Shown here: one piece after another, positions 7,133-29,916 of the stretch
How the letters are laid out: the number at the start of each line of letters is the position of its first letter
Position numbering within the stretch: the stretch's first letter is position 1
Source of the DNA: a virus
Taxonomy: Duplodnaviria > Heunggongvirae > Uroviricota > Caudoviricetes
Virus record (IMG/VR): IMGVR_UViG_2703718850_000013
Reading direction: 5' to 3' (one strand)
DNA length: 32,125 nt
Program-made: the position numbers and the translations under genes
Notes under the pieces: model-generated
Seen by the model: only the letters and a program-made list of their open reading frames with translations
The model's database searches: none
What the model was told of the DNA's origin: nothing

Positions 7133-7909
7133 TTATTTTATGGGTAAAATTTTCTTTATTTCATTTTCGGCGGCAAAATGATTGTTTAACTGCTCATAAT
7201 ATTTTGACATCATAACTGAATTTTTTAGACGCTGAATCTTATCTTTTTTCCATTGTGCGAGATAATAGGAACCTGAAAGTTGTTCTACAGCAGAGTAAAA
7301 ATATTCTTTAAGGGTAGAGCACCAAAAATAGTTAAAGCTAACAATATCTTTTTCAAGTTGATACGACTCAAAGACATAACCTGCATTGGCATTCCAATAT
7401 TTCATTATGCGAATAAGAGGCTTAATTAAATTGTTATTATTTTTATTGCAATTAGTTAAATCAGTATTGAACGCATTGGGATCGGTATTCATCCAACGGT
7501 TCAAAAAATCCTGGTTGGAAGGGATTTGATAACCAAATAAAATATTATGAGATGCAGGGACAAGCTCGAAAGTAATATGATTAAGGTTCAATTGAATAGT
7601 AGGGTGGCTTTGCTTTATTTCAGATGTACGATAGTAATAATTTACAAAACCCCTTAGCTTGTTTAGGTAGGTCTGAGGCTGATATATTACATTTTTGAAT
7701 ACAACCATATAATCAACATCAGAAGAAGGATCATAGCTACGAGGAAGCATTGTATTACGTGAATATGAGCCAAATACAAAATGACTAACAAGTTCACCAG
7801 CAAAATAACCATTCAGTCTGTTTTTTATGGTTGCAATTGAATTCGTTATTGTAATATCTCTTTGATAAGCATTGCTTTTAATAGACTCAAGATAGGTACT
7901 GACTGTCAT
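7133..7909 (-). CDS. pol-beta-type nucleotidyltransferase, SMODS/CD-NTase-like
   Basis: FGSYSRNT...SDVDY (hG[GS]-x9-13-DxD) plus a later acidic residue (FELVP); AAGGAA SD 6 nt upstream; start lies 2 nt after the upstream gene's stop. Confidence 0.6.
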   Translation of the reverse strand: MTVSTYLESIKSNAYQRDITITNSIATIKNRLNGYFAGELVSHFVFGSYSRNTMLPRSYDPSSDVDYMVVFKNVIYQPQTYLNKLRGFVNYYYRTSEIKQSHPTIQLNLNHITFELVPASHNILFGYQIPSNQDFLNRWMNTDPNAFNTDLTNCNKNNNNLIKPLIRIMKYWNANAGYVFESYQLEKDIVSFNYFWCSTLKEYFYSAVEQLSGSYYLAQWKKDKIQRLKNSVMMSKYYEQLNNHFAAENEIKKILPIK

Positions 7910-7911
7910 GT

Positions 7912-8415
7912 TTATTCCTTGTCAATATTATACTTAGTAAAGCCTTGGTTAACATCTCTTTGAGTTTTCTCATAAGCCCACCGAGGAATATTTGGCGAAC
8001 TTGAATTAAGTTGATTGCGTCGATCAGAGTAACTCGTAAGTTTTTCAATCAAAGTTTTATCAGTAAAATCAAAATTAGAAGTCAATATTTCCCTAAATAT
8101 TCTAACTTCATTCTTTAATTTATTATATTCATTTGCTGCTGATTTATGAAGTGCAGCACGCTTACTTGGGTTAAGAGACGTATTTAATGCAGTTAGAATT
8201 GTAGCAGTTATGGAAATAGCTACAACAGCATTGGCTGTACTCTTGATTGCGGCAATACCACTCAAAGCGGTTAAGATTGCTAATGGTACACCGAACCACA
8301 GATTCAGCTTATCCCATCTATCAGAAACATTATAATGAGATTTAGAAGAGTACAGAGCGTCCTCTTCTATACGATGACACTCAGAAATGACTGTTTGGAT
8401 GAGCTTCTGATTCAT
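7912..8415 (-). CDS. 2TM membrane protein, SLATT-like effector candidate (start re-chosen)
   Basis: About 40-aa N-terminal region, two TM helices (LWFGVPLAILTALSGIAAI; AVVAISITATILTAL), helical C-terminal region; tightly coupled to the nucleotidyltransferase gene. ATG at 8413-8415 has a GGAG SD; the track start is a GTG two codons upstream. Confidence 0.55.
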   Translation of the reverse strand: MNQKLIQTVISECHRIEEDALYSSKSHYNVSDRWDKLNLWFGVPLAILTALSGIAAIKSTANAVVAISITATILTALNTSLNPSKRAALHKSAANEYNKLKNEVRIFREILTSNFDFTDKTLIEKLTSYSDRRNQLNSSSPNIPRWAYEKTQRDVNQGFTKYNIDKE

Positions 8416-8579
8416 AAACACTCCAACAAATCCGATTCCCTAACAGTATAACATGGTAGGGTTAATAAATACTATAGGTACTTCCCTCTGAATAGACACA
8501 ATCGGGAAGTTTCGCCGCGAACTATTTTTTTTGCATATTAAATATTTTAAATAACACAAACAAAACCTGGATAAACAAA

Positions 8580-9101
8580 TTGAACGATAGATATACAACA
8601 AACGAAATTGCAGAACGTATGGGAGTTAATGACAGTACTGTAAGCCGTGAATGGGCAAAACGTGGAATGCCACACCCAAAGAAAGCAAGTAAAAAAGAAA
8701 TAGATCAATGGATACTAATTAATATTATCCAACCATTGCGAAATACTGATGTAAAAGAACAGATTGAAAAAGAGAAATTACGCAAGATATCACTTGAAGC
8801 AGATTTAGTTGAGATTGAATTAAATATCAGTACTGAAAAGGTATTGAGTACTGATTATGTAACTCAAACACTAACTGGTTATTTTGCAGCACTACGCGGA
8901 GTACTAAGAAGTATTCCGGCATCTATCTATGTAGAACTATTTGAAAGTGAAGATGCGGATACATTGCGGATAAAACTAGAAGAAAGGATTGATGAGAAAC
9001 TAAGGGAATTAGGATCATATGAGTACGAAGAACAGCCAGAAGAAGATGATGAAGATTCTGAACCAGAGTCTGAAATCAATATTACCCCCACCGAAGATTA
9101 A
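8580..9101 (+). CDS. terminase small subunit, lambda Nu1-like
   Basis: N-terminal HTH TNEIAERMGVNDSTVSREWAKRGMP resembles Nu1 (…IRTIQNWQEQGMP) and EKEKLRK resembles Nu1 ENEKLRR; acidic C-terminus. Track start is TTG with no clear SD, so the true start is uncertain. Confidence 0.6.
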   Translation: MNDRYTTNEIAERMGVNDSTVSREWAKRGMPHPKKASKKEIDQWILINIIQPLRNTDVKEQIEKEKLRKISLEADLVEIELNISTEKVLSTDYVTQTLTGYFAALRGVLRSIPASIYVELFESEDADTLRIKLEERIDEKLRELGSYEYEEQPEEDDEDSEPESEINITPTED

Positions 9102-10938
9102 ACCATCTGAATGGTGTGAACAATATACTGTATTTCCAGATGGACCACTGGCACAACAAAAAACTAAATTATTTTCATTTCAAGTAGAACCCCTAAACGC
9201 CACAGTAGATCCATCAGTACAGAAGATCTGTTTAATGAGTAGTGCACAATTACTCAAGACAACAATACTACAAAATGCAATGCTTTACAGGATGGCAAAT
9301 AAACCCTCCCATATGATATTTGCGGGTAGTAGTGGTAGTACTGTGAAAAAGTTCCGTACTGGTAAATGGATGGATACTATTAATGCGTGTCCAAACCTTC
9401 AAGCATTAATCACTGACAAATCAGATAAGAATGCAGTAAACGATCTACACACTCAACAGAACGTTGACGGTACTAAGACATACTTTGTTAACCTCAATTC
9501 TAGCCAGTCCCTACGCTCGCTTACAGTTCCTGCAATCTTCATTGATGAATTATCAGGTGTAGATCCAGAACAAGATGAGGGCAACCCCCTATCACTCATA
9601 GAACAGCGTGCAACTCAGTTTGGTAAGAACTCCCTGATCGTGATGGCCTCCACACCATTAGTACAGGACGATATGATCTGCCAGCAATGGGAACTCTCAG
9701 ACCAGAGACATTTTCATGTCGTGTGTCCACATTGTGATCATGACCATATTTTAGAATGGGAGAATATAAAGTTTGAATGGGTGAAGTTCAACGAACGACG
9801 TAATGCACCAGAACCCACTACAGCACGCCTACACTGTCCAGGATGTGATGAAGTAATCACTGAAGGGCAACGTGCACGGATGGTTGCAAAAGGTTACTGG
9901 AAAGCACACAGACTGCATGTGATGGGTTTCAGGGGATACCATGTTAATAGACTATATTCACCGATTACTACTATTGAGAAGATTGTTGAAGACTTTAAGA
10001 ACTCATGGATAAACTTTGAAGAACAATCTTTCTATAATAACGTACTCGGTTTACCGTGGGTAGATAAGAATAATATTAAAGAAGATCTTACAGTACTGGA
10101 AAACTTACGCGACTTTGATTTAGATGTAAAACATATTCCAGATAATGCACTTGGTATTGTACTGGCATGTGACCAACAGATAGACCGCTTAGAATGTAGT
10201 ACTATTGCATTTGATGAAAAGAATATATGGGTTCTGGACCACCGTATGTTTTATGGTGTCGATTGTACTAAGTATGAAGATAAGGCATATACTGAACTAC
10301 TTAATTATAGTAAGAGTATATTTAAAACCACTTCAGGTAGAAAAGTACCAGTACTGAGATCCTTTATTGATAGCTCAAACGGATCTGCAACCAGTTCCAT
10401 ATATCGCTTTTGTTCTTCCAGTGGGGGACGATGGCATGCAATTAAGGGTGCAAACACACAGACTGGTCCCATCACGAAGGATTCCACAACGGCAGGACAT
10501 CAACTGGTTAATATTAATACTCAAGTACTGAAGCACCAGGTTAAGAAGTTATTACGACAGGCATGTGAAGGGGGAGAGTATAGTACTAATATACACTTCA
10601 GTCATTCCCTTGTCGATGATTACTTCCTCCAACTTACAGCAGAAAAACTAGTACGAAAAGGTTCAGTGATGGTATGGGAGAATCCAAATGGAGAGCGTAA
10701 CGAATGTCTCGATACGCTCGTCTACTCATTAGCAGCGATTGATCACAAGATACAGGCACTTGGTGCACAACCGTATAGGAAGTTGCGAGAGTATAGAGCT
10801 AAACAAAAAGAACTAAATACTAAAGTAGAAGAATCCATAAAAACTAAAGCAGAACAACAACCAGTACAGAAAGAGAAGCAGAAATCAAAACCTAAGAAAA
10901 AAGGACTTTCAGCACTTAATAATCGTAACTGGTTTTAA
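9019..10938 (+). CDS. terminase large subunit, GpA-like
   Basis: 639 aa, immediately after TerS, with cysteine/histidine clusters (CPHCDHDH; CPGCDE); AGGA SD before ATG 9019; overlaps TerS by 83 nt (alternative ATGs at 9046/9049). Confidence 0.8.
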   Translation: MSTKNSQKKMMKILNQSLKSILPPPKIKPSEWCEQYTVFPDGPLAQQKTKLFSFQVEPLNATVDPSVQKICLMSSAQLLKTTILQNAMLYRMANKPSHMIFAGSSGSTVKKFRTGKWMDTINACPNLQALITDKSDKNAVNDLHTQQNVDGTKTYFVNLNSSQSLRSLTVPAIFIDELSGVDPEQDEGNPLSLIEQRATQFGKNSLIVMASTPLVQDDMICQQWELSDQRHFHVVCPHCDHDHILEWENIKFEWVKFNERRNAPEPTTARLHCPGCDEVITEGQRARMVAKGYWKAHRLHVMGFRGYHVNRLYSPITTIEKIVEDFKNSWINFEEQSFYNNVLGLPWVDKNNIKEDLTVLENLRDFDLDVKHIPDNALGIVLACDQQIDRLECSTIAFDEKNIWVLDHRMFYGVDCTKYEDKAYTELLNYSKSIFKTTSGRKVPVLRSFIDSSNGSATSSIYRFCSSSGGRWHAIKGANTQTGPITKDSTTAGHQLVNINTQVLKHQVKKLLRQACEGGEYSTNIHFSHSLVDDYFLQLTAEKLVRKGSVMVWENPNGERNECLDTLVYSLAAIDHKIQALGAQPYRKLREYRAKQKELNTKVEESIKTKAEQQPVQKEKQKSKPKKKGLSALNNRNWF

Positions 10939-11436: not shown

Positions 11437-12429
11437 ATGTTTAATTTTAATTTTAGAAAGGCAAAGGAACAGCCAAAAGAAGAACCAAAACTATATATTG
11501 GTAAGGCAAAAATACGTACTGAACCAGTACTTGGTAATTTAGGTATTGAAACCAAACGTTCCATTTCTTCCATCGGTAACGGTAACGCAGCCGCACAACT
11601 TGGTACATTTGGTGCAGTTGGTAAGAGTGGCTCGATCAATGCCGTAATTAACCGTGTATTGAACACGGCAGTACTACAAAGTCGCCAGCTTAGTATGAGT
11701 AACCCAATTCATAAGAAGTATATTGCACAGAATGCCAGTAGTGTATGTGGTGCAAATGGTATTACGTATCGTCCATGTGTTCACGTTGCTGAAGATGACA
11801 ATGTTAATAATGATATTAATAAACGTCTCGCCGATGCGTTCTACTCATGGTGTGAAGACCCCGCACGTTTTTCCCTAAATGGAAAACTTGAAATGTCCAA
11901 ATTCCAGTCACTGGTAGAGAAGACACGTTCAATTGATGGTAGTTGTTTTATTCGTATCCATCCTGGTATGAAGATTGAAGTACTAGACAGTACTGTAATT
12001 GATACGAAAGGTAATCAATGGCTAAGTAATGGTAACTATCGTTCAAATGGTATTGAGTTTGAAAAAGGCACTGGTAAACCCGTTGCTTACTTTCTAACAC
12101 AATATGACCCCGTATCGTACTCAGTTAGTACTGAAGCAGAACGTGTACCCGCAGAAGAGATCCTTCACTTATTCAGTACTGACTATCCAGAACAGCAACG
12201 CGGCATTCCCGATATATTTTGCGGTACTGGACTACTGGCAGACCTGGATAAATTCATGAGGGCGTCAATCAAGACGCGACAATTAGCAGCGGAAAGCATG
12301 GGTTTTATCACGAATGCGTCACGTGATGCATCATTTGAAGATATTGATGATGATGACGATTCTGATGTAGATGAATACCAGGTTGCACGTATGGAGGGTG
12401 GAGTACTGTTAGAACTTCGTGAGGGTTAA
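11437..12429 (+). CDS. portal protein, N-terminal segment (ends at an in-frame TAA)
   Basis: Position after TerL; weak resemblance to lambda gpB from memory; followed in the same frame by 12433..12948. Confidence 0.6.
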   Translation: MFNFNFRKAKEQPKEEPKLYIGKAKIRTEPVLGNLGIETKRSISSIGNGNAAAQLGTFGAVGKSGSINAVINRVLNTAVLQSRQLSMSNPIHKKYIAQNASSVCGANGITYRPCVHVAEDDNVNNDINKRLADAFYSWCEDPARFSLNGKLEMSKFQSLVEKTRSIDGSCFIRIHPGMKIEVLDSTVIDTKGNQWLSNGNYRSNGIEFEKGTGKPVAYFLTQYDPVSYSVSTEAERVPAEEILHLFSTDYPEQQRGIPDIFCGTGLLADLDKFMRASIKTRQLAAESMGFITNASRDASFEDIDDDDDSDVDEYQVARMEGGVLLELREG

Positions 12430-12898
12430 GATGTGAAGTCACTCAGTCCATCACAAACATTCGACGCACTACAGGAATTTCTAGATAACCAGTTGATTTT
12501 CATAGGGATGTCACTCGATCTTACACCACAGACGTTAACAGGTTCGACCGCAGGGGCATCATTCAGTGCCTCGAAGTTAACAGACAAAATTCAGCAAAAT
12601 ACATTTCTTGCAAAACAAAACAACCTGGTTAAGTCAGTACTTCAACCTTTGTATATTAAGTGGCTCAAGAATGAAATGCTAAATAACCCGATGTTGAAGG
12701 ATTTGCCATTTAGTAAATTTACTGAACTAACTGAATGTAATTTCATTCCACAACGTCATATTAGTCTAGACCCACTGAAAGATTTACAGACTGAGATTCT
12801 CGCAATGGAAAATGGATTAAAGAGTAAAGAACAAATAATTTCTGAGATGGGCTATTCACCAGTACTAACCCATGAGCAGATTACTAAGGAAGAAACAG

Positions 12899-15014
<2,116 letters not shown>

Positions 15015-28985: not shown

Positions 28986-29010
28986 GGGGCATTAATGCCC
29001 CTTTTTATTT
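28986..29010. terminator. bidirectional intrinsic terminator GGGGCATTAATGCCCC + T-tract
   Basis: Perfect 16-bp palindrome flanked by an A-run upstream and a T-run downstream, between convergent genes; it overlaps the endolysin stop codon. Confidence 0.7.
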
Positions 29011-29451
29011 GTTAATTAAATCTTTAATCATCTGGTTAAGTCTATTCGGTGTCTGACGATACCATAAACTATCCTTTGCCTGTTTAATTGCTTCTGTGTA
29101 ATTATTGTTTAGTAATGCAATGATCATCTTTTTAAACTTCTTAGTACCACTTAAGCCTAACTGAAAAATCATGATAACCATGAAGTCTTCCCAGTCCTGT
29201 GGTAATTTCAAATTTAAGGTAGATAAATTACGTTTGGCAATGCCAATATCTTTATCCAGTAGTTTATCTGCTTCATCCTCGTTAATGCCGTTAGGGAACG
29301 TCTCAGAGGCTTTTAGAAGATGTCCATATCCAATCGTATCTTTGTTCTCACTACATTTATACACCCAGAATTTACCATTGCGATAATAACCCATATGGGC
29401 CTGGTATTCTTTCGTACCTTCATATATTTTTAATTTTTCTATTAAACACAT
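29005..29451 (-). CDS. endolysin, GH24 T4-lysozyme-like (start corrected)
   Basis: DTIGYGHLL and SLWYRQTPNRLNQMI align with T4 lysozyme TIGIGHLL and SRWYNQTPNRAKRVI; the ATG at 29449-29451 has a GAGG SD, whereas the track start at 29505 adds 18 residues with no counterpart. Confidence 0.85.
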   Translation of the reverse strand: MCLIEKLKIYEGTKEYQAHMGYYRNGKFWVYKCSENKDTIGYGHLLKASETFPNGINEDEADKLLDKDIGIAKRNLSTLNLKLPQDWEDFMVIMIFQLGLSGTKKFKKMIIALLNNNYTEAIKQAKDSLWYRQTPNRLNQMIKDLINK

Positions 29452-29487
29452 AAATACCTCATAAACTATTATTTGTGGGGTATTTAT

Positions 29488-29916
29488 ATGAAATGGACAA
29501 TGCATGATCCTGAGACATGGGATTATGAAGATATAAATGACGGGAGGTATGCAGCTTTTGTATATATGATCACTTTTGACGATGGTTCATATTATTTTGG
29601 TGTAAAGTCAATCTTCAAAAGTATTCGGGATGTAAAGAAGCTGAAGCCAACTACAAAGGAATCCAACTGGGAGAATTATTATTCTTCCTCGAAGAAGGTG
29701 CAGGCAATGGTTGATTCAGGCCTGAACTATGAAAAACAAATACTATGGTGTTTCAGAACGACGAATGAAGCTGAGCAAGTAGAAGCGGCATTGATTCTAT
29801 TCTTAGGACAGCAATCAAATAATTTAAATCTTGCCGTGATGTGCAAAGTACGGCTTGGTAAAAATCGTTCTGAAACATTCAAAGTACTGCAACAATTATT
29901 AGAGAGGTTATCATGA
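29488..29916 (+). CDS. hypothetical protein, possible stand-alone GIY-YIG nuclease domain
   Basis: FVY-x10-YFG then Arg, Glu and Asn at roughly GIY-YIG spacing; weak. Start set at ATG 29488 (track start 29473 is TTG). Confidence 0.35.
   Translation: MKWTMHDPETWDYEDINDGRYAAFVYMITFDDGSYYFGVKSIFKSIRDVKKLKPTTKESNWENYYSSSKKVQAMVDSGLNYEKQILWCFRTTNEAEQVEAALILFLGQQSNNLNLAVMCKVRLGKNRSETFKVLQQLLERLS

What the first reader, a model, noticed from the sequence alone, without database searches (positions are those of the whole stretch)
8416..8579. Candidate cos / packaging region upstream of the Nu1-like small terminase
The terminase pair is lambda-like (Nu1/GpA), and lambda-like phages carry cos immediately upstream of the small-subunit gene. 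This intergenic region contains a GC-rich, nearly two-fold-symmetric core TTCGCCGCGAA (8511-8521) in an AT-rich context, and a 7-bp inverted repeat ACTTCCC / GGGAAGT (8480-8510).
Basis: inference. Interest (0 to 1): 0.4.

Follow-up and report, generated by a model that had tools for sequence, protein, structure and literature searches.

The report
Lambda-type cos site of a prophage

Summary
On their own they are not remarkable. A perfect 7-bp inverted repeat occurs in 38% of shuffles, and neither symmetry is kept in relatives.

The same bases belong to a multi-box non-coding element found in at least 23 distinct related prophages (TerL 40-60% identical). There is one copy per locus, and it sits at the edge of a variable defence-cargo slot.
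- Box A is AGGTWCTYC (window 8476-8485).
- Box B is CGSGAGTTTTCG.. (8503-8519), a fixed 25-28 bp downstream.
- T/A tracts and two weaker boxes follow, reaching towards TerS.

Box A matches the lambda cosQ position. The window's 10-mer AGGTACTTCC is the only copy in phage ECOO78. It lies 29 bp before that phage's deposited 13-nt cohesive end, and it is the best Box A PWM hit in that genome.

CG dinucleotides sit at offsets ~28 and ~43 from Box A in lambda, BZS1, the Jilinvirus phages and this family. TerS is a Nu1 homologue and TerL is a gpA-family terminase.

Most likely this is cosQ-cosN-cosB. The predicted overhang is about 8505-8517 (GGAAGTTTCGCCG).

It is a new member of a known kind and of modest interest. 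The ends remain unmeasured.

The parts
8416..8579 (+). Whole intergenic region: candidate cos (cosQ-cosN-cosB) of the prophage. It must also hold the promoter of the divergent CBASS operon.
   Evidence: Conserved multi-box element in at least 23 related loci. One copy per locus. One copy in each of 88 E. coli genomes.
8462..8471 (+). Weakly conserved AT-rich stretch (TAATAAATAC) just upstream of Box A.
   Evidence: Similar (G)TAAATAAA(C) strings lie 5-25 nt upstream of Box A in L004, L094, L096, L180, L181, L183 and L186. Information content is low.
8476..8485 (+). Box A, AGGTACTTCC: the cosQ-like box (family consensus AGGTWCTYC).
   Evidence: AGGT.CT is near-invariant in 23 loci. The identical 10-mer is unique in phage ECOO78, lies 29 nt before its deposited 13-nt cohesive end, and is the top Box A PWM hit of 82,552 positions. 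Lambda GGGTCCT lies 30 nt before its nick, BZS1 GGGTCCTTCCC 31 nt and KA2-1 GGGTCCTTCC 28 nt.
8486..8502 (.). Variable spacer between Box A and Box B. Its length is kept and its sequence is not.
   Evidence: Information content is near zero. The Box A to Box B offset is 25-28, mode 27.
8503..8519 (+). Box B, CG-GGAAGTTTCGCCG-CG: predicted cosN. The predicted 5' cohesive end is about 8505-8517 (or 8505-8515), flanked by CG 8503-8504 and CG 8518-8519 (or 8516-8517).
   Evidence: G.AG.TTTCG is strongly conserved and the 3' half is variable. CG sits at offsets 26-29 and 40-43 in nearly all family members, as in lambda, BZS1, ECOO78/Bas97 and KA2-1. Conserved CG flanks and a conserved left half of the overhang are reported for lambda-like phages (PMC4669245). 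The nick positions are inferred.
8520..8579 (+). cosB-like segment: T-run 8525-8532, a degenerate Box C region (about 8533-8545), A/T tracts, and Box D ACACAAACAAAAC (8554-8566).
   Evidence: A T-rich run, [CT]GTG[AGT][AG] at offsets 59-61 in 11 of 23 relatives and at 60-61 in Jilinvirus phages, then either ACAAACAA or TCCCGCnCCGCA. The window itself has no clean Box C match. Protein binding was not tested.
8580..9101 (+). Small terminase (TerS), a Nu1 homologue with TTG start.
   Evidence: PHROG 57, 8.1e-20. Family alignment A3. hhalign to lambda Nu1 gives 92.8% probability (E 3.9e-7) and to ECOO78 TerS 98.3% (E 1.2e-14).
9019..10938 (+). Large terminase (TerL), gpA family, with ATPase and endonuclease domains.
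   Evidence: Pfam GpA_ATPase 3.3e-52 and GpA_nuclease 1.3e-45. PHROG 15, 1.6e-132.
7133..8415 (-). CBASS type I-like cargo (cyclase 7133-7909, 2TM/SLATT effector 7912-8415). It occupies the variable slot that ends at the cos-like element and is not part of cos.
   Evidence: PADLOC cyclase 3.5e-113 and 2TM effector 2.3e-70. Pfam SMODS 4.9e-31. Relatives carry other cargo in this slot.

Best explanation
Window 8462-8579 is the cos site of a lambda-type (Nu1/gpA terminase) temperate prophage of E. coli.

**Proposed mechanism, by analogy with lambda**
- TerS (8580-9101) binds the cosB-like segment (about 8520-8579). Intrinsic A/T-tract or IHF bending probably helps.
- This positions the gpA-family TerL on Box B (cosN, about 8503-8519).
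- TerL makes staggered nicks next to the two CG dinucleotides. That leaves a 5' cohesive end of about 11-13 nt, predicted as GGAAGTTTCGCCG at 8505-8517.
- Packaging then runs rightwards into TerS/TerL and the head and tail genes.
- Box A (8476-8485, AGGTACTTCC) is the cosQ equivalent. At the end of a genome length it would be needed for the terminating cut at the next cos.

**Shown:** the conservation, single copy, position, box similarity and shared geometry with phages that have deposited ends, and the terminase homology.

**Inferred:** the cutting itself, the exact nick positions, the overhang polarity and the role of each box.
For: **1. Conservation.** The two boxes and their spacing recur upstream of TerS in at least 23 distinct loci whose TerL is only 40-60% identical. 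These come from Klebsiella, Yersinia, Mangrovibacter, E. coli and metagenomes. The sequence between the boxes and the genes to the left are unrelated.

**2. Copy number.** There is one copy per locus and one per genome in 88 of 5,426 complete E. coli genomes.

**3. Not tied to the TerS start.** In L098, L096, L097 and L010 a minus-strand gene lies between the element and TerS. The element stays intact about 630 bp upstream.

**4. Box A equals the cosQ position.**
- Lambda has GGGTCCT at 48473-48479, 30 nt before the nick.
- BZS1 has an annotated cosL, with GGGTCCTTCCC 31 nt before its end.
- ECOO78 is deposited with GGGGCATTGGTCC at both ends. AGGTACTTCC starts 29 nt before it. This is the identical 10-mer to the window's, unique in that genome (0.08 expected), and the rank 1 Box A PWM hit of 82,552 positions even with the window's 10-mer left out of the PWM.
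- The KA2-1 record starts at the same point and has GGGTCCTTCC there.

**5. Shared geometry.** CG sits at offsets 26-29 and 40-43 from Box A in the family, lambda, BZS1 and the Jilinvirus phages. Box C sits at offsets 59-61 in 11 of 23 family members and at 60-61 in Jilinvirus.

**6. Conservation pattern inside Box B.** The left part is strongly conserved and the right part variable, with CG flanks. This matches what Feiss et al. report for lambda-like cosN (PMC4669245).

**7. The enzymes fit.** TerL is gpA family. TerS is homologous to Nu1 and to ECOO78 TerS.

**8. Wider gpA context.** Many metagenome contigs of distant gpA-type phages start 370-630 nt upstream of TerL, as expected if cos lies just upstream of TerS across this terminase family.
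Against: - No physical end of any member of this family was found. Contigs that break nearby start 7, 30, 72 and 75 nt upstream of Box A (L095, L179, L102, L170), not at the predicted nick. These are most simply assembly breaks at the variable cargo boundary.
- A profile HMM of the element finds neither the lambda nor the ECOO78 cos region. The similarity is limited to short boxes and spacing.
- Lambda's own cosQ ranks only 709th of about 97,000 positions with the family Box A PWM.
- Box B also resembles the sequence just right of the overhang in lambda (nt 13-25, CGCGGGTTTTCGC). That site is the 2nd best Box B PWM hit of about 97,000. This would place the cut in the variable spacer instead, so the nick position is ambiguous.
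- No clear repeated R-type TerS sites or consensus IHF site were identified.
- The window itself has no clean Box C match.
- This prophage copy has a nonsense codon in its portal gene, so cos may not be in use in this strain.
Confidence: 0.8

Rival explanations
1. The conserved element is mainly a transcriptional control region. It would hold the late promoter of the TerS-to-tail operon with a phage activator site at Box A and Box B, and perhaps the divergent promoter of the cargo genes, rather than the packaging site.
For: - The 20-kb structural operon starts here and no promoter is otherwise evident.
- TATA-like strings (TATAAT in L170 and L179, TATATG or ATATGTG in others) lie about 25-35 nt after Box B.
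- A weak or absent -35 box is typical of activator-dependent late promoters.
- A single late operon would also explain the single copy.
Against: - The consensus scan finds no sigma-70-like promoter in 8416-8579.
- Box A and Box B are not sigma-70 hexamers, and their 35-bp spacing does not fit a -35/-10 pair.
- In several relatives a minus-strand gene lies between the element and TerS.
- This reading does not explain why Box A equals the box 28-31 nt before the deposited ends of ECOO78, KA2-1, BZS1 and lambda, nor the shared CG geometry.
- A promoter could still coexist with cos inside the same gap.
Confidence: 0.1
2. The element works as RNA or as a single-stranded hairpin. It could be an intrinsic terminator or insulator (GC core followed by the T-run) or a small structured RNA.
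For: In the window and some relatives the GC core is followed by a run of 8 T. The inverted repeat could form a 7-bp stem.
Against: - The terminator scan finds nothing here.
- The TTCGC-C-GCGAA palindrome leaves a one-base loop.
- The T-run is absent in L007, L102 and L011.
- There is no covariation: 55% of cells paired against 57% in shuffles.
- The fold z-score is -1.3.
- There is no Rfam match at E up to 1.
Confidence: 0.03
3. The phage packages from a site elsewhere or by a headful mechanism. The conserved element would then be something else, for example a boundary or recombination site of the cargo hotspot.
For: No ends have been measured. The element marks the exact edge of the variable cargo region, and several assemblies break just upstream of it.
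Against: - gpA-family terminases with Nu1-type TerS are the lambda-type cos enzymes (PMC4669245).
- The element's boxes and geometry match sites where related terminases cut.
- No second copy that could serve as a recombination partner was seen.
Confidence: 0.05
4. The features are chance sequence in an ordinary intergenic spacer.
For: The inverted repeat and the GC core are individually at chance level.
Against: The boxes and their spacing are conserved across at least 23 divergent loci with unrelated flanks. nhmmer E-values run down to 3.6e-14.
Confidence: 0.02

Closest known systems
Bacteriophage lambda cos (cosQ-cosN-I2-cosB), cut by the Nu1/gpA terminase
   Same: - It sits directly upstream of a Nu1-homologous TerS and a gpA-family TerL.
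- It is about 120-200 bp long.
- A 7-10 bp box (lambda GGGTCCT, here AGGTACT) lies about 28-30 bp before a CG dinucleotide, and a second CG follows 12-14 bp later.
- The left part of the putative overhang is conserved and the right part variable.
- A/T-rich, probably bent DNA lies between the cut site and TerS.
   Different: - The putative overhang sequence (GGAAGTTTCGCCG) is unrelated to GGGCGGCGACCT and is probably 11-13 nt rather than 12.
- Box A differs from cosQ at 2 of 7 positions.
- No R1-R3-type repeats or clear IHF site were seen.
- A profile search does not connect the two.
- The upstream neighbour is a divergently transcribed defence cargo, not the lysis genes.
cos of Jilinvirus phages (ECOO78, ep3, Bas97, Arya, KA2-1)
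   Same: - The 10-mer AGGTACTTCC is identical and in the same position.
- CG sits at offsets 28 and 43.
- A [CT]GTG[AGT][AG] box sits at offset 60-61, as in 11 of 23 family members (offsets 59-61).
- An AATCAAAA-type tract follows.
- The deposited ends (13-nt GGGGCATTGGTCC in ECOO78) fall exactly between the two CGs.
   Different: - TerL is only about 27% identical.
- The overhang sequence differs.
- The Jilinvirus spacer is G+C-rich.
- The upstream neighbour there is the spanin gene.
- No significant profile-level similarity was found.
[quoted passage not shown] 2022, PMC9122126)
   Same: A slot of highly variable, mostly defence-type cargo lies directly next to the packaging site. Here the cargo includes CBASS, an OLD nuclease, PLD+DUF2971 and mSLOG/DUF488/DuOB.
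   Different: The phage lineage and terminase family are different, and integration is by a large serine recombinase. Only the gene arrangement was seen here. Defence activity was not tested.

Membership tests
Lambda-type cos site (cosQ-cosN-cosB) of Nu1/gpA terminase phages | Lies next to genes for a Nu1-type small terminase and a gpA-type large terminase. | tested here: met
   TerL hits Pfam GpA_ATPase 3.3e-52 and GpA_nuclease 1.3e-45. TerS aligns to Nu1 by hhalign at 92.8% probability, E 3.9e-7. The element lies 58 bp (window) to about 630 bp (L098) upstream of TerS.
Lambda-type cos site (cosQ-cosN-cosB) of Nu1/gpA terminase phages | A conserved short cosQ element about 30 bp upstream of the first nick. 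| tested here: met
   Box A AGGTWCT is near-invariant. It is identical to, and the top PWM hit at, the site 29 nt before the ECOO78 cohesive end. Lambda, BZS1 and KA2-1 have GGGTCCT at 30, 31 and 28 nt. Caveat: lambda's cosQ scores poorly with the family PWM, rank 709. Function was not tested.
Lambda-type cos site (cosQ-cosN-cosB) of Nu1/gpA terminase phages | A cosN with conserved CG dinucleotides flanking nick positions about 12 nt apart, a conserved left half and a variable right half. | tested here: met
   CG sits at offsets 26-29 and 40-43 in nearly all 23 members, as in lambda, BZS1 and Jilinvirus. The literature criterion is from PMC4669245.
Lambda-type cos site (cosQ-cosN-cosB) of Nu1/gpA terminase phages | Terminase makes staggered nicks that give complementary single-stranded ends on virion DNA. 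| not testable with these tools
   No virion DNA or read data are available. No contig of the family starts at the predicted nick.
Lambda-type cos site (cosQ-cosN-cosB) of Nu1/gpA terminase phages | A cosB with repeated TerS-binding (R) sites and an IHF or bend site between cosN and the TerS gene. | tested here: inconclusive
   Conserved T-run, Box C, A-run and Box D are present. No convincing repeated R-type sites and no consensus IHF site were found.
Lambda-type cos site (cosQ-cosN-cosB) of Nu1/gpA terminase phages | One copy per phage genome. | tested here: met
   One nhmmer hit per locus. One place in each of 88 E. coli genomes.
Lambda-type cos site (cosQ-cosN-cosB) of Nu1/gpA terminase phages | Detectable sequence homology of the whole site to a cos with known ends. 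| tested here: not met
   A profile HMM of the family element gives no hit at the lambda or ECOO78 cos. Only box-level and geometric similarity was found. This is not a defining feature of cos function, but it limits any claim of common descent.
Intrinsic (rho-independent) terminator | A stable G+C-rich hairpin with a loop of at least 3 nt, followed by a T-run, and conserved. | tested here: not met
   No terminator-like site in the gap. No covariation. The T-run is absent in several relatives.
Sigma-70 promoter | -35 and -10 hexamers with a 16-18 bp spacer. | tested here: not met
   No promoter-like site in 8416-8579 at the scan threshold. An activator-dependent promoter cannot be excluded.

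The most novel reading that the evidence does not exclude
The family may use a rearranged cos.

Box B is nearly identical to the sequence that lies just outside the cohesive end in lambda and Jilinvirus (CGCGnnnTTTCGC, the start of lambda's I2 segment). In this family it occupies the position of the cohesive end itself. Two readings follow.
- The terminase cuts inside what is a flanking recognition box in its relatives, so the cut site has shifted relative to the ancestral sequence.
- The terminase cuts in the hypervariable 17-bp spacer and measures from conserved flanks, with no sequence requirement at the nick.

Either would be an unusual way for a gpA-type nuclease to choose its cut site.
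Probability: 0.15. Interest if true: 0.5.

Novelty: new member of a known kind. Interest (0 to 1): 0.3.

Why it matters
- This prophage family is widespread in Enterobacterales. The exact element is in 88 of 5,426 complete E. coli genomes, and relatives occur in Klebsiella, Citrobacter, Serratia, Yersinia and others. No cultured phage has a TerL more than 34% identical. A defined packaging site gives a genome start point for annotation.
- It also gives a concrete prediction for end-mapping: a left end starting near 8505 with GGAAGTTTCGCCG.
- The signature (RGGTNCTYC, about 18 bp, CG, 12-13 nt, CG) recurs in lambda, BZS1, Jilinvirus and this family. It could serve as a computational cos finder for gpA-type phages.
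- It marks the edge of a defence-cargo hotspot, as at the P2 and P4 cos sites. This is useful for mining defence systems.

Tried and rejected
**Relatives among cultured phages**
- megablast and blastn of the region against 50,697 phage records found no relatives.

**Physical ends in assemblies**
- I looked for ends using contig starts. Four contigs start 7-75 nt upstream of Box A, at no common position, and none starts at the predicted nick. I take these as assembly breaks at the variable cargo edge, not virion ends.
- The 14-15-mer Box B scans of viral contigs gave mostly random matches.

**A mapping I dropped**
- I first mapped Box A onto lambda AGGTTACG, directly left of the nick, which implied a ~20-nt overhang in the spacer (note).
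- I dropped this when ECOO78, KA2-1 and BZS1 showed that the homologous box is the one about 30 nt upstream, at cosQ, and that the overall geometry from Box A to Box C is the same length.

**Searches that failed or were negative**
- Profile HMM searches of lambda and ECOO78 with the family element were negative.
- The TerS alignment was too divergent to seed a metagenome scan.
- The first genome-collection scan with a single TerL found nothing.
- RNA readings were rejected on Rfam, folding and covariation.
- The terminator and sigma-70 scans were negative.
- A literature search for the ends of ECOO78 found nothing useful.
- A search for extra, satellite-borne copies of the element in E. coli genomes found none.

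Full report
**Observation**

The region reads exactly as described.
- ACTTCCC is at 8480-8486 and GGGAAGT at 8504-8510.
- TTCGCCGCGAA is at 8511-8521.
- The gap 8416-8579 runs from the ATG of a minus-strand gene (8413-8415) to the TTG start of the small terminase at 8580.
- The TTG start is supported by the N-terminal alignment with relatives: MNDRYTTNEIAERMGVN against MKENYTNEEIAIRYGVN.

The symmetries are not unusual on their own.
- A perfect 7-bp inverted repeat with a 3-40 nt gap appears in 38% of dinucleotide-preserving shuffles. It appears about once per 164 nt across the whole window.
- The G+C-rich core is no richer than the best 9-mer in shuffles.
- The DNA fold has a z-score of -1.3.
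- There is no Rfam match and no promoter-like or terminator-like site in the gap.

**Context**

Downstream on the plus strand:
- a small terminase (PHROG 57)
- a gpA-family large terminase (Pfam GpA_ATPase 3.3e-52, GpA_nuclease 1.3e-45)
- a head-tail joining protein
- a lambda-family portal
- a protease-capsid fusion, followed by tail genes

The TerS family aligns to lambda Nu1 (hhalign 92.8%, E 3.9e-7) and to the TerS of phage ECOO78 (98.3%, E 1.2e-14). The "Nu1/gpA" premise therefore holds.

Upstream on the minus strand is a two-gene CBASS-like module. PADLOC gives the cyclase 3.5e-113 and the 2TM effector 2.3e-70.

The window is 100% identical over 2.7 kb to E. coli N61 (NZ_AP028880.1). No cultured phage has a TerL more than 34% identical. 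Relatives are prophages of Enterobacterales that integrate with a large serine recombinase.

**A conserved element**

I compared the DNA upstream of TerS in loci with TerL 40-60% identical. This showed a multi-box element in at least 23 distinct loci.
- Box A is AGGTWCTYC.
- A spacer of fixed length but free sequence follows.
- Box B is CGSGAGTTTTCG plus a variable tail. It starts 25-28 nt (mode 27) after the start of Box A.
- A T-rich run follows, then a [CT]GTG[AGT][AG] box at offsets 59-61 in 11 of 23 loci, then an A/T tract.
- Last comes either ACAAACAA or TCCCGCnCCGCA.

A profile of the element finds exactly one copy per locus, with E-values down to 3.6e-14. The exact window version occurs once in each of 88 of 5,426 complete E. 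coli genomes and is unannotated.

Across 19 sequences, 55% of cells pair against 57% in shuffles, and covariation is below the shuffle mean.

In the close relative L002, one arm of the inverted repeat and the centre of the palindrome have changed.

The genes left of Box A differ from locus to locus:
- CBASS
- an OLD-family nuclease
- PLDc_2 plus DUF2971
- mSLOG/DUF4326 plus DUF488 plus DuOB
- LprI
- no recognised defence gene (at most a 126-aa ORF of unknown function, as in L005)

In L098, L096, L097 and L010 a minus-strand gene sits between the element and TerS. The element stays intact about 630 bp upstream.

**Comparison with sites of known ends**

I read the lambda ends from NC_001416. The junction is:

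...CGGGTCCTTTCCGGTGATCCGACAGGTTACG | GGGCGGCGACCT | CGCGGGTTTTCGC...

- GGGTCCT at 48473-48479 lies 30 nt before the nick, which is the cosQ position.
- Feiss et al. (PMC4669245) describe cos as cosQ, cosN and cosB plus the I2 segment. [quoted passage not shown] Positions 7-12 vary, and the CG dinucleotides flanking both nicks are highly conserved.

Serratia phage BZS1 has cosL annotated at 1-12. It has GGGTCCTTCCC 31 nt before its end.

E. coli phage Bas97 (TerL 27% identical) has this sequence upstream of TerS:

AGGTACTTCC-N17-CG GGGGCATTGGTCC CGCGTAATTCGCG

A blastn of that region shows deposited genome termini exactly there.
- ECOO78 carries GGGGCATTGGTCC at both ends of its linear record.
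- The KA2-1 record starts with GGGGCAGTGCCAC, and its cosQ-position box reads GGGTCCTTCC.

So AGGTACTTCC and GGGTCCTTCC are alternative forms of the same box in one phage group.

The Box A PWM was built without the window's own 10-mer. Its best hit of 82,552 positions in ECOO78 is the site 29 nt before the cohesive end. The exact 10-mer is unique there, with 0.08 expected.

Laid out from the first base of Box A, the CG dinucleotides fall as follows:

| Phage or family | First CG | Second CG |
|---|---|---|
| lambda | 29 | 43 |
| BZS1 | 29 | 43 |
| ECOO78 / Bas97 | 28 | 43 |
| KA2-1 | 27 | 42 |
| nearly all 23 family members | 26-29 | 40-43 |

The [CT]GTG[AGT][AG] box falls at 60-61 in the Jilinvirus phages and at 59-61 in the family. 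The overall geometry is therefore the same.

**Interpretation**

The element is best read as a lambda-type cos.
- Box A (window 8476-8485) is the cosQ equivalent.
- Box B (8503-8519) is cosN. The predicted 5' cohesive end is GGAAGTTTCGCCG (8505-8517), or 11 nt ending at 8515, between CG 8503-8504 and CG 8518-8519 (or 8516-8517).
- 8520-8579 is the cosB-like TerS-binding and bending segment.

The conservation profile inside Box B has a strong left part and a variable right part. This matches the pattern described for lambda-like cosN.

Packaging would proceed rightwards. The variable cargo slot would then be the last DNA to enter the head, as with the cos-adjacent hotspots of P2 and P4 (PMC9122126).

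**Weak points**

- No physical ends are available for this family. The four contigs that break nearby start 7, 30, 72 and 75 nt upstream of Box A. I take these as assembly breaks at the cargo boundary.
- A profile HMM of the element detects neither the lambda nor the ECOO78 cos.
- Lambda's cosQ scores poorly with the family Box A PWM, at rank 709.
- Box B is also very like lambda nt 13-25, just right of the overhang. That site is the 2nd best of about 97,000 positions and is one mismatch from a family instance. This alternative register would place the cut in the variable spacer. I prefer the cosQ-anchored register because the whole Box A to Box C length and both CG positions are conserved. 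Even so, the nick positions are uncertain by a few bases.
- No R-type repeats or clear IHF site were found.
- The window has no clean Box C match.
- A late promoter may share the gap.
- This particular prophage copy has a TAA in its portal gene, where a 100%-TerL relative has CAA. It is probably not producing particles.

**Verdict**

The finding is a new member of a known kind: a lambda-type cos in an uncharacterised but common prophage lineage. It has an overhang sequence of its own and a useful cross-family signature. Interest is modest.

Noticed in passing
window 12427-12429 (portal gene 11437-12948): An in-frame TAA splits the lambda-family portal gene into 330-aa and 171-aa ORFs. The relative with a 100% identical TerL (L003, GCA_012605595.1) has CAA and an intact 503-aa portal. 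This prophage copy is probably defective.
   Followed up: yes
window 7133-8415 (minus strand): A two-gene CBASS type I-like module directly abuts the cos-like element and is transcribed away from it. It comprises a SMODS cyclase (PADLOC 3.5e-113) and a 2TM/SLATT effector (PADLOC 2.3e-70).
   Followed up: partly
Left of Box A in L002, L004, L005, L007, L171, L172, L259, L261; between Box D and TerS in L098, L096, L097, L010: The slot next to the cos-like element holds different cargo in each relative: an OLD-family nuclease, PLDc_2+DUF2971, mSLOG/DUF4326+DUF488+DuOB, LprI, or no recognised defence gene. Some relatives have a second insertion point between the element and TerS, holding a 187-aa minus-strand gene. 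This resembles the cos-adjacent defence hotspots of P2 and P4.
   Followed up: partly
window about 9470 (inside TerL): 87 other complete E. coli genomes match window 8300-9470 at 99.7% and then stop matching. This points to a recombination breakpoint inside the large terminase gene. The SLATT end, cos and TerS would travel as one module.
   Followed up: no
window 29005-29916: A GIY-YIG SegE-like endonuclease ORF (29473-29916, Pfam 3.8e-17) overlaps the 5' end of the oppositely oriented phage lysozyme gene (29005-29505, minus strand). It may be a homing-endonuclease insertion.
   Followed up: no
L189-L258 (metagenome contigs of distant gpA-type phages, TerL 25-31% identical): About half of the contigs that are cut upstream start 370-630 nt before TerL. 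This is roughly three times more than an even spread would give, and it looks like physical cos ends just upstream of TerS in marine gpA-type phages.
   Followed up: no
L270 (KA2-1, PQ571296.1, last 110 nt): The KA2-1 record starts exactly at the cohesive end. Its 3' end carries the cosQ box and the 13-mer followed by 56 nt of other sequence, so the deposited right end does not stop at cos. This may be an assembly or deposition artefact.
   Followed up: no
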